Shown here in pieces: positions 28,721 through 28,846 of a stretch of DNA of 64,000 nucleotides. The notes under the pieces are model-generated. The model ran no database searches, was not told the origin of the DNA, and saw nothing but the letters and a program-made list of their open reading frames with translations. A program made the translations under genes and the position numbers. The stretch spans positions 32,001 to 96,000 of IMG/VR virus record IMGVR_UViG_3300010356_000998; one strand, written 5' to 3'. Within the stretch, counting starts at the first letter, position 1, and each line of letters starts with the position of its first letter. The stretch comes from a virus. Lineage: Duplodnaviria > Caudoviricetes.

Positions 28721-28846
28721 GGTGGGGGAGGCTAGAATCGAACTAGCGACAGTCAGCTTTGCAGGCTGATACTCTACCGATGAAACTCTTAAATAACTAC
28801 CTTTCGGAGAAAATTTAAAGAGTTGTTGTAACTGAGTTACTCCCCC
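28721..28846 (-). ncRNA. tRNA(GCA) cloverleaf with a 51-nt Y-RNA-like hairpin inserted in the D-loop
   Basis: GGGGGAG/CTCCCCC-ACC acceptor, ACTC/GAGT D-stem, TCAGC-CTGCAAA-GCTGA anticodon arm, GCTAG-TTCGATT-CTAGC T-arm; insert at 28779-28829. Confidence 0.75.

What the first reader, a model, noticed from the sequence alone, without database searches (positions are those of the whole stretch)
28721..28846. tRNA-Y RNA chimera: full cloverleaf with a permuted Ro-type stem in the D-loop
Seen: all four tRNA arms are intact (anticodon GCA, 3' ACC), but 51 nt are inserted between D-loop AGUU and GGUA. The insert is ACAACAACUCUUUAAAUUUUCUCC-GAAA-GGUAGUUAUUUAAGAGUUUCAUC. It matches, in swapped order, the two strands of the free stem at 29884-29948 (ACAACAUAACUCUCCCCAUUUACCC and GUGGUUAGGGGAGAGUUACUUC), with compensatory changes and a GAAA cap. 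Known: bacterial YrlA Y RNAs mimic tRNA but have a closed acceptor stem, with their 5'/3' ends in the Ro-binding stem. Inference: this is the inverse topology, a tRNA with free acceptor ends carrying an internal Ro60 handle. It could recruit phage Ro60 to translation, or act as a decoy for anticodon nucleases. The discriminator is A, not the U73 typical of Cys tRNAs.
Basis: partly seen in the sequence, partly recalled or inferred. Interest (0 to 1): 0.85.

Follow-up and report, generated by a model that had tools for sequence, protein, structure and literature searches.

The report
tRNA-shaped Y RNA beside phage Ro60
A sludge phage that encodes a Ro60 protein also encodes a tRNA-shaped RNA with free ends, whose D-loop carries the same bulged stem that closes the phage's other Y-like RNAs; relatives in at least 11 other phage contigs with a related Ro60 keep this layout, which points to an undescribed form of Ro60 partner RNA.

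Summary
Window 28846..28721 (minus strand) folds as a full cloverleaf with anticodon GCA and 3' tail A-CC. Exactly 51 nt sit between D-loop AGUU and GGUA.

The insert is a capped copy of a stem module. In the same genome, that module closes a 65-nt hairpin RNA just downstream of the Ro60 gene and a 117-nt RNA with a tRNA-like core.

It is not a one-off. A covariance model finds the same layout in 11 further distinct sequences from contigs with Ro60 43-63% identical. It has a 7-bp acceptor stem, the capped module at the D-arm position, a second hairpin, a T arm and an A-C tail. One of the 11 (L056 6759-6887) lacks an acceptor stem and is doubtful.

Covariation is strong: 18 of 23 pairs change on both sides. 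The module's 3-nt internal loop is genome-specific and is shared between the capped and the end-closed copies.

Only the window copy keeps a D stem, and the anticodon varies between homologs. The family therefore looks like a Y-RNA variant with an open tRNA-like body, not a conserved decoding tRNA.

Ro60 binding, expression and function are untested. I found no description of this layout in the papers I could search. I rate it a new variant of a known kind, interest about 0.7.

Earlier first-reader notes of this scan on the same genome describe the same module.

The parts
28721..28846 (-). Whole RNA (126 nt): a tRNA-shaped body with free 5'/3' ends and the capped stem module in the D-loop. I call this the P-type.
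   Evidence: Sequence; fold; model R1 scores 102.5 bits over 28721-28823; ARAGORN calls tRNA-Cys after the insert is removed.
28840..28846 (-). Acceptor stem, 5' strand GGGGGAG. It pairs with 28724-28730 (CUCCCCC).
   Evidence: Homologs keep 7 bp through compensating changes: GGGGAGG/CCUCCCC, GGCGAGC/GCUCGCC, AGCGGGG/CCCCGCU.
28779..28829 (-). 51-nt insert: ACAACA, helix 2 (28813-28823 with 28785-28793), loop UUU, helix 1 CUCC (28806-28809), cap GAAA (28802-28805), helix 1 GG(U)AG (28797-28801), loop UUA (28794-28796), flank UUCAUC (28779-28784).
   Evidence: Helix 1 is paired in 100% of cells and helix 2 in 79%, with changes on both sides.
28771..28778 (-). GGUA (D-loop G18/G19 equivalents) plus the D-stem 3' strand GAGU. 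The 5' strand ACUC lies at 28834-28837.
   Evidence: GGUA follows the module in 4 of the 5 close copies. The D stem is present only in this genome.
28753..28769 (-). Anticodon arm UCAGC-CUGCAAA-GCUGA. The anticodon GCA lies at 28760-28762.
   Evidence: This arm is a 5-bp stem with a 7-nt loop in the close homologs, but with other anticodons.
28731..28747 (-). T arm GCUAG-UUCGAUU-CUAGC.
   Evidence: The stem is paired in 100% of cells, and 4 of 5 pairs change on both sides.
28721..28723 (-). Discriminator A and CC. The CCA end is not fully encoded.
   Evidence: The same A-C-N context follows all homologs but the doubtful L056 6759-6887 and the phage's ordinary tRNAs.
29884..29948 (-). Minimal end-closed copy of the module (N-type) with a small apical hairpin, about 165 nt downstream of the Ro60 stop.
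   Evidence: The orthologous copies lie within about 350 nt downstream of Ro60 in L006, L007, L010 and L017.
28097..28213 (-). End-closed copy of the module around a tRNA-like core (D arm, anticodon-like arm, T arm, 4-bp acceptor remnant). ARAGORN calls the core tRNA-Arg(tcg). The RNA starts 7 nt after tRNA-Met.
30114..31781 (-). Ro60/TROVE + vWA protein gene, the presumed partner.
   Evidence: phrog_850 E 6e-35; Pfam TROVE 22.9 bits; the homolog profile hits PDB 9KOP and 1YVP.

Best explanation
This is a member of a conserved family of phage non-coding RNAs: a Y-RNA variant built on a tRNA body.

The phage's Y-like RNAs share one stem module. It consists of helix 1 NRUAG/CUYC with a bulged U, a small asymmetric internal loop, a helix 2 of about 9-11 bp, and a conserved U(U/A)C(A/U)UCG flank. 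Normally the RNA's 5' and 3' ends form this stem and close a payload. Here the module is capped by a loop and sits at the D-arm position of a tRNA-like body whose acceptor stem is open.

Inferred steps:
1. It is transcribed with the Ro60-tRNA array.
2. It is cut out like a tRNA (RNase P at the 5' end, 3' trimming, CCA completion by host enzymes), through its 7-bp acceptor stem and T arm.
3. The hairpin is bound by the phage Ro60, as the terminal stems of the sister RNAs are presumed to be.
4. The result is a Ro60 particle that displays a tRNA mimic with a free 3' end. It would tether Ro60 to tRNA-handling proteins, or act as a tRNA decoy, rather than decode.

Shown: sequence, fold, conservation, covariation, module sharing, and position beside Ro60. 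Inferred: expression, processing, Ro60 binding and function.
For: 1. The structure is real. The fold z-score is -3.7. Model R1 finds 11 further distinct sequences (duplicates), one of them doubtful. On A5, 89.8% of cells pair against 66.5% after shuffling and at most 48.7% after sliding; 18 of 23 pairs change on both sides; the covariation score is 0.642 against 0.186 (0 of 500 shuffles reach it). Acceptor stems also covary.
2. The same module occurs in both topologies. I found 21 end-closed copies with perfectly complementary but different helix 2 sequences, all on the Ro60 strand and within about 3.5 kb downstream of the gene.
3. One end-closed copy (L010 8549-8682) encloses a core in YrlA order: T arm, closed acceptor, D arm. 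It matches the Rfam YrlA core at 37.6 bits, E 3e-7. The module therefore stands where YrlA has its Ro60-binding stem.
4. The 3-nt loop next to helix 1 is genome-specific: UUA in the window clade, UAA in L027, CAA in L022, UCA in L063, L051 and L056. In these genomes the capped copy carries the same version as the end-closed copies, as expected for one shared partner.
5. In an IMG/VR pattern scan that did not start from Ro60, the six hits that carry the G/UAG helix-1 context lie in the five loci that have a Ro60 tblastn match.
6. The gene is a Ro60.
7. The 3' context A-C-N is the same as for the phage's ordinary tRNAs.
8. Precedent: M. smegmatis YrlA is cut by RNase P and receives CCA in vivo; D. 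radiodurans Yrn1 has D-anticodon-T order (PMC4201824); a Thermus phage Ro60 binds phage-encoded Y-like RNAs (PMC12135203).
Against: - No expression or binding data exist.
- Most loci were fetched through Ro60, so co-occurrence is partly built into the sample.
- The published Ro60/Rsr motif GNCGAAN0-1G is not conserved in the module. The CCGAAAG in the window copy comes from its cap, which is GCAA, UGUAAG or GGUAAC in relatives.
- Rfam YrlA does not reach its gathering score anywhere in these loci.
- The window copy is a complete cloverleaf with canonical U8, A14, G15:C48 and GG/T-loop positions, so a tRNA function is not excluded.
- L062 and L049 break the loop-triplet rule.
- Alignment A5 was fitted to the model, which favours the structure.
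Confidence: 0.6

Rival explanations
1. The family and its structure are real, but the shared stem module is read by something other than Ro60. That could be another conserved small protein of the locus, or a host RNase acting on it as a processing or stability element.
For: The canonical GNCGAAN0-1G motif is absent (PMC4201824). Rfam YrlA stays below its gathering score. Several small conserved ORFs of unknown function lie between the RNAs. End-closed copies usually begin 3-8 nt after a tRNA or P-type 3' end, which would fit a processing role.
Against: The module occupies the position of the Ro-binding stem in a YrlA-order RNA. It persists next to Ro60 genes down to about 29% identity, including a 635-kb megaphage, while the neighbouring ORFs change. 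The pattern-scan hits with the helix-1 context all lie in loci that have Ro60.
Confidence: 0.15
2. It is a working elongator tRNA (Cys here, mostly Ile-type in relatives) that tolerates an expansion at the elbow. The hairpin modulates its stability or use.
For: The cloverleaf is complete with canonical tertiary positions. The six close copies all have 7-nt anticodon loops with U33 and A37. The genome has no other Cys or Ile tRNA. The 3' context matches real tRNAs. Five of the six close copies have Ile-compatible anticodons (GAU, UAU, CAU) together with A73.
Against: The discriminator is A, not the U73 that CysRS needs (established knowledge). The anticodon differs among orthologs, including CCU and GUA. 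L049 and L027 have irregular anticodon loops, and the L027 T arm is degenerate. No homolog except the window copy has a D stem. A ~40-nt helix at the elbow should clash with the ribosomal elbow contacts (inference).
Confidence: 0.12
3. Its role is only to be recognised by tRNA-processing enzymes. It acts as punctuation that releases the neighbouring RNAs from a polycistronic transcript, and the hairpin is a by-product.
For: In L062 and L063 an end-closed Y-like RNA starts 6-7 nt after the P-type 3' end. Ordinary tRNAs take the same position upstream of other end-closed copies.
Against: An ordinary tRNA already does this job. This idea does not explain selection on helix 1, helix 2 and the genome-specific loop of the capped module. 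In the window nothing clearly module-like follows the P-type.
Confidence: 0.08
4. It is a tRNA-Cys gene interrupted by an intron-like or mobile insertion that is removed from the precursor.
For: Precise removal of the 51 nt gives a sequence that ARAGORN calls tRNA-Cys(gca) with an 8-nt D-loop.
Against: None of the five relatives tested becomes a tRNA when the hairpin is removed. The junctions lie in long single-stranded stretches and not in a bulge-helix-bulge. At 51 nt the insert is too small for a group I intron, and no Rfam intron family matches. The phage has no RtcB or RNA-ligase hit. The insert is a conserved, covarying module and not an identical repeat. A related strain contig keeps the insert.
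Confidence: 0.05

Closest known systems
YrlA Y RNAs (Rfam RF02553; Salmonella, M. smegmatis; Chen et al. 2014, PMC4201824)
   Same: A Ro60-linked RNA made of a bulged stem plus a tRNA-like domain and encoded beside the Ro60 gene. M. smegmatis YrlA has a 7-bp acceptor stem that is opened by RNase P and receives CCA.
   Different: In YrlA the 5'/3' ends lie in the Ro stem, the arm order is T, closed acceptor, D, and the Ro stem continues from the anticodon-stem position. Here the ends lie in the acceptor stem, the arms run in normal tRNA order, the module is capped and sits at the D position, and an anticodon-like arm is kept. There is no Rfam YrlA hit on it, and the GNCGAAN0-1G motif is not conserved.
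Deinococcus radiodurans Yrn1
   Same: A Y RNA whose tRNA-like part runs in D - anticodon-like - T order. This matches the end-closed sister RNA at 28097-28213.
   Different: The ends of Yrn1 form the Ro stem, and it has no free acceptor end.
Thermus phage phiLo Ro60 with Yrl1/Yrl2 (PMC12135203; PDB 9KOP, 9L5Y)
   Same: A phage-encoded Ro60 with several phage-encoded Y-like RNAs next to the gene. The Ro60 profile made here matches 9KOP (E 1e-10).
   Different: Those RNAs were picked by a CGAA motif and are ordinary stem-closed RNAs. No tRNA body with open acceptor ends was described.
tmRNA tRNA-like domain
   Same: Acceptor stem and T arm with a free CCA end, no normal D stem, and a large extra domain carried by a tRNA-like frame.
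   Different: In tmRNA the extra domain replaces the anticodon arm and holds a tag reading frame; it has a G3:U70 alanine identity and an SmpB partner. Here position 3:70 is G-C, there is no reading frame, and the extra domain sits at the D position.

Membership tests
Y RNA (Ro60-associated non-coding RNA) | Encoded next to a Ro60/TROVE gene | tested here: met
   The Ro60 gene lies at 30114-31781 on the same strand, 1.3 kb upstream. Homologs lie 77 nt to 3.3 kb from Ro60.
Y RNA (Ro60-associated non-coding RNA) | Bulged stem formed by the RNA's own 5' and 3' ends | tested here: not met
   The stem is an internal hairpin capped by GAAA, and the ends form the acceptor stem. The sister RNAs at 29884-29948 and 28097-28213 do meet this feature.
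Y RNA (Ro60-associated non-coding RNA) | Conserved Ro60-contact motif (GGUCCGA in animals, GNCGAAN0-1G in bacteria) | tested here: not met
   The window copy has UCCGAAAG across its cap, but relatives have GCAA, UGUAAG or GGUAAC caps. The conserved 5'-strand motif is NRUAG-UUA instead.
Y RNA (Ro60-associated non-coding RNA) | Physical binding to Ro60 | not testable with these tools
   This needs RIP, CLIP or EMSA.
YrlA (Rfam RF02553) | Score at or above the gathering threshold of 69 bits | tested here: not met
   No YrlA hit falls on 28721-28846. The best hit in the window is 26.5 bits at 27171-27327 and the best in relatives is 37.6 bits.
YrlA (Rfam RF02553) | Arm order T arm, closed acceptor hairpin, D arm | tested here: not met
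   The order here is acceptor 5' strand, module, anticodon arm, T arm, acceptor 3' strand.
tRNA | Cloverleaf with a 7-bp acceptor stem and D, anticodon and T arms | tested here: met
   Shown by the fold. Rfam tRNA gives a local 33.4 bits against a threshold of 29. ARAGORN calls it only after the insert is removed. The five relatives tested fail this in silico test, and the more distant ones show no D stem.
tRNA | Identity elements that agree with the anticodon (U73 for Cys) | tested here: not met
   The discriminator is A. The U73 requirement comes from established knowledge.
tRNA | Anticodon conserved among orthologs | tested here: not met
   The loops carry GCA, GAU, GAU, UAU, UAU, CAU, CCU, GUA, or are irregular.
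tRNA | Aminoacylation and use in translation | not testable with these tools
   This needs acid gels or charged-tRNA sequencing.
Intron-containing tRNA | Bulge-helix-bulge at the junctions, or a group I fold | tested here: not met
   Both junctions lie in 9-10 nt unpaired stretches. No intron family matches in Rfam. The insert is only 51 nt.

The most novel reading that the evidence does not exclude
The RNA is a matured, CCA-ended and possibly charged tRNA body that carries Ro60 on its elbow. The phage would use it either to bring Ro60, and any exonuclease bound to it, to tRNA-handling machines, or to keep a Ro60-shielded spare or decoy tRNA that host anticodon nucleases attack instead of real tRNAs. 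The changing anticodon arms among related phages would then track different host nucleases.
Probability: 0.15. Interest if true: 0.9.

Novelty: new variant of a known kind. Interest (0 to 1): 0.72.

Why it matters
All described Y RNAs bind Ro60 through a stem made by their own ends. The tRNA-like ones have a closed acceptor stem, opened only in M. smegmatis YrlA by RNase P.

Here a conserved group of phage RNAs has the reverse arrangement: free tRNA ends and an internal Ro-type handle. If Ro60 binds it, the particle would carry a processable 3' end that might even be charged. That makes a long-open question directly testable: what does the tRNA-like domain of bacterial Y RNAs recruit?

These phages also carry three or four layouts of one module side by side: a bare stem, a Yrn1-like order, a YrlA-like order, and the open tRNA form. 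Together they make a natural series for mapping what Ro60 recognises.

The genome-specific loop triplets (UUA, UAA, CAA, UCA) give a handle for co-evolution analysis with the protein. Standard tRNA and Rfam tools miss all of these RNAs.

Tried and rejected
- No close DNA relative in GenBank phages. Short blastn hits were only to tRNA parts.
- The search for related loci with the single Ro60 protein found nothing, and phmmer against PDB found nothing. Both worked once a profile was used.
- Exact-pattern scans for the hairpin apex and for its 3' strand in IMG/VR and JGI metagenomes gave only chance hits in coding-like sequence (L011, L012, L018, L019).
- MAFFT alignment A1 misplaced the 5' acceptor strand, so the model was built without it (A3, R1).
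- Two of my regex scans were far too loose and only produced noise. The hit at window 4881-4898 is not supported by R1.
- L020 7715-7824 (R1 40 bits) is an ordinary tRNA behind a hairpin. L029 8649-8757 and L056 6759-6887 are doubtful.
- Promoter and terminator scans were uninformative.
- Sequencing runs: no RNA holder is listed. All holders are DNA contigs from activated sludge, wastewater, biofilm and freshwater samples.
- Laying four DNA runs showed no form without the insert. It showed one related contig that keeps it.
- R1 found no P-type in loci whose Ro60 is at most 34% identical.
- tblastn against GenBank phages found only an uncultured 635-kb phage.
- Two review papers (PMC10870794, PMC6047535) are not held.
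- Complex prediction was not used, because it takes no RNA chain.
- The host was not determined.

Full report
**Setting.** The window is bases 32001-96000 of a 108.7-kb IMG/VR virus record that CheckV estimates to be 99% complete. DNA runs that hold it come from activated sludge. Around the finding, all genes and RNAs lie on the minus strand.

A 555-codon ORF at 30114-31781 is a Ro60. It matches phrog_850 'RNA-binding protein' over its full length (E 6e-35). Pfam TROVE scores 22.9 bits against a cut-off of 23. There are thousands of homologs, many of which carry precomputed TROVE hits (often with PF25045) and a few of which a source names 60 kDa SS-A/Ro. A profile of 16 homologs hits the Thermus phage phiLo Ro60 (9KOP, E 1e-10) and Xenopus Ro60 (1YVP, E 4e-7).

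ARAGORN finds only eight tRNAs in the whole genome, with no Cys and no Ile.

**The observation.** It has a 7-bp acceptor stem, U8, a 4-bp D stem, an anticodon arm with loop CUGCAAA, a 5-nt variable region, a T arm with loop UUCGAUU, discriminator A, then CC. The D-loop reads AGUU, then 51 nt, then GGUA.

The minimum-energy fold is this cloverleaf with a bulged hairpin in the D-loop (z -3.7). ARAGORN does not call the gene and Rfam gives only a local tRNA hit. If the 51 nt are removed in silico, ARAGORN calls a normal 75-nt tRNA-Cys(gca).

The hairpin RNA at 29884-29948 is real (z -4.5). It shares both strands with the insert in swapped order, with compensated differences in the inner helix. 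The shared flank AGAGUUNCNUCG occurs only at these two sites in the window (0.07 expected).

**The module.** Comparison defined one stem module:
- Helix 1 is NRUAG paired with CUYC, leaving one U bulged.
- An asymmetric internal loop follows: UUA opposite AUUUU.
- Helix 2 has about 9-11 bp.
- A flank U(U/A)C(A/U)UCG lies on the payload side.

The window holds the module three times. Twice it is closed by the RNA's own ends (N-type): at 29884-29948 with almost no payload, and at 28097-28213 around a tRNA-like core that ARAGORN mislabels tRNA-Arg(tcg). Once it is capped by GAAA inside the D-loop (P-type), which is the finding.

**Relatives.** Ro60 proteins 55-63% identical led to nine contigs from Logan and ENA assemblies, loci L006-L017.

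Those loci and the window together hold 21 N-type copies with perfectly complementary helix 2 and the canonical tail. All lie on the Ro60 strand within about 3.5 kb downstream of the gene. Helix 2 has a different sequence in most copies.

The payloads fall into three kinds: a bare loop, a D - anticodon-like - T core, and in L010 8549-8682 a core in YrlA order (T arm, closed acceptor hairpin, D arm). The last matches the Rfam YrlA core at 37.6 bits, E 3e-7. The module therefore stands where YrlA has its Ro60-binding stem. Neither Rfam YrlA nor any other Y family reaches its threshold in any locus.

**The P-type family.** A structural scan found the capped form in L006, L007, L014 and L017. Covariance model R1 was built from six copies: these four, the window and L062. 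It then found the form beside Ro60 genes 43-53% identical in L063, L049 (=L061), L027 (=L028, L032), L022, L051 (=L052) and L056. In L056 the copy with an acceptor stem is 7042-7182; the R1 hit at 6759-6887, which is the L056 row of alignment A5, lacks one and is doubtful.

Apart from that doubtful row, all members have a 7-bp acceptor stem with compensating changes (for example GGGGAGG/CCUCCCC, GGCGAGC/GCUCGCC, AGCGGGG/CCCCGCU). All have the capped module as the first hairpin, then a second hairpin, a T arm, and an A-C-N tail like the phage's ordinary tRNAs.

On the model-based alignment of 12 distinct sequences, 89.8% of cells pair, against 66.5% after shuffling and at most 48.7% after sliding the partner. 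Eighteen of 23 pairs show changes on both sides. The covariation score is 0.642 against 0.186, reached by 0 of 500 shuffles. The alignment was fitted to the model, so these numbers lean towards the structure. The compensations are also plain in the raw sequences.

R1 finds no P-type in loci whose Ro60 is at most 34% identical, although N-type modules persist there. That includes a site beside the Ro60 gene of a 635-kb uncultured phage.

**Link between the two topologies.** The 3-nt loop after helix 1 is genome-specific. It is UUA in the window clade, UAA in L027, CAA in all six copies of L022, and UCA in L063, L051 and L056. In these genomes the P-type hairpin carries the same version as the N-type copies. 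L062 and L049 are exceptions. This is what one expects if a single partner in each genome reads both forms.

In an IMG/VR pattern scan that did not start from Ro60, 80 loci were fetched. The six hits that carry the G/UAG helix-1 context all lie in the five loci that have a Ro60 match, and four of the five checked by reading show the return strand with a U-rich tail. The other hits look like chance, though 9 of 76 passed a relaxed hairpin filter.

**What argues against a plain tRNA.** Only the window copy has a D stem. None of the five relatives tested becomes a tRNA when the hairpin is removed. The anticodon differs among orthologs: GCA, GAU twice, UAU twice, CAU, CCU and GUA. Some distant members have irregular anticodon loops, and L027 also has a weak T arm. 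The window copy combines GCA with discriminator A, whereas CysRS relies on U73 (established knowledge).

The window copy thus looks like the family's acceptor stem and handle joined to a complete tRNA-Cys-like body. The close relatives look Ile-like, with A73.

**What argues against an intron.** The junctions lie in long unpaired stretches. No intron family matches. The phage has no RtcB, RNA-ligase or CCA-enzyme hit. The insert is a selected, covarying module. A related strain contig keeps it.

**Most likely working.**
- Shown: a conserved, structured RNA beside Ro60 that shares the Y-like stem module.
- Inferred: it is released like a tRNA through its acceptor and T arms and completed with CCA. 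The phage Ro60 binds the hairpin as it is presumed to bind the terminal stems of the sister RNAs. The particle then displays a tRNA mimic with a free 3' end, serving as a tether or a decoy.

Precedents: M. smegmatis YrlA is cut by RNase P and receives CCA, Yrn1 has the normal arm order (PMC4201824), and a phage Ro60 binds phage Y-like RNAs and host PNPase (PMC12135203). Aravind and colleagues view phage TROVE proteins as RNA-repair platforms with a tRNA-like partner (PMC7824862).

**Novelty.** Four text searches found no description of a Y-type RNA with open acceptor ends and an internal Ro-type handle. I rate it a new variant of a known kind. Earlier first-reader notes of this scan on the same genome describe the same module and agree with this reading.

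Noticed in passing
window 29392-29680: A 289-nt non-coding stretch between tRNA-Trp and the next ORF is skipped in contigs of two other runs (X4, X7). It holds a degenerate tRNA-like element (Rfam tRNA 16.5 bits at 29478-29549, loop CUUAUAA).
   Followed up: partly
window 28850-28937: A long inverted repeat (about 18 bp arms) lies directly upstream of the P-type RNA, between it and the ORF that ends at 28929. It showed up as a spurious mir-454 hit.
   Followed up: no
window 27230-27327: A T-arm-like hairpin upstream of tRNA-Met gives a weak full-length YrlA match (26.5 bits) together with the D arm of that tRNA. This may be the dimeric-tRNA artefact that Chen et al. warn about, or another tRNA-like RNA.
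   Followed up: no
window 28213 / 28220; L006 9681/9685; L010 8541/8549; L062 10029/10035; L063 7120/7127: End-closed Y-like RNAs start 3-8 nt after the 3' end of a tRNA or of a P-type RNA. This suggests that tRNA 3' processing sets their 5' ends.
   Followed up: partly
L010 1949-2089: A Hatchet ribozyme match above the Rfam threshold (57.7 bits against 51) in a related phage contig, about 4 kb upstream of Ro60.
   Followed up: no
L006 5655-5776: A tRNA (Rfam 54.7 bits, full model) with an insertion of about 50 nt that extends the anticodon stem to 11 bp and carries an extra hairpin.
   Followed up: partly
L006 8852-8924: The relative carries a tRNA with anticodon UCA (ARAGORN 'SeC', 73 nt) at about the position where the window has tRNA-Trp(CCA). 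It may read UGA.
   Followed up: no
L048 7830-8208; L049 7633-7999: Phage-encoded tmRNA genes (Rfam 67.8 and 60.6 bits) lie just downstream of Ro60 in two ~100-kb contigs.
   Followed up: no
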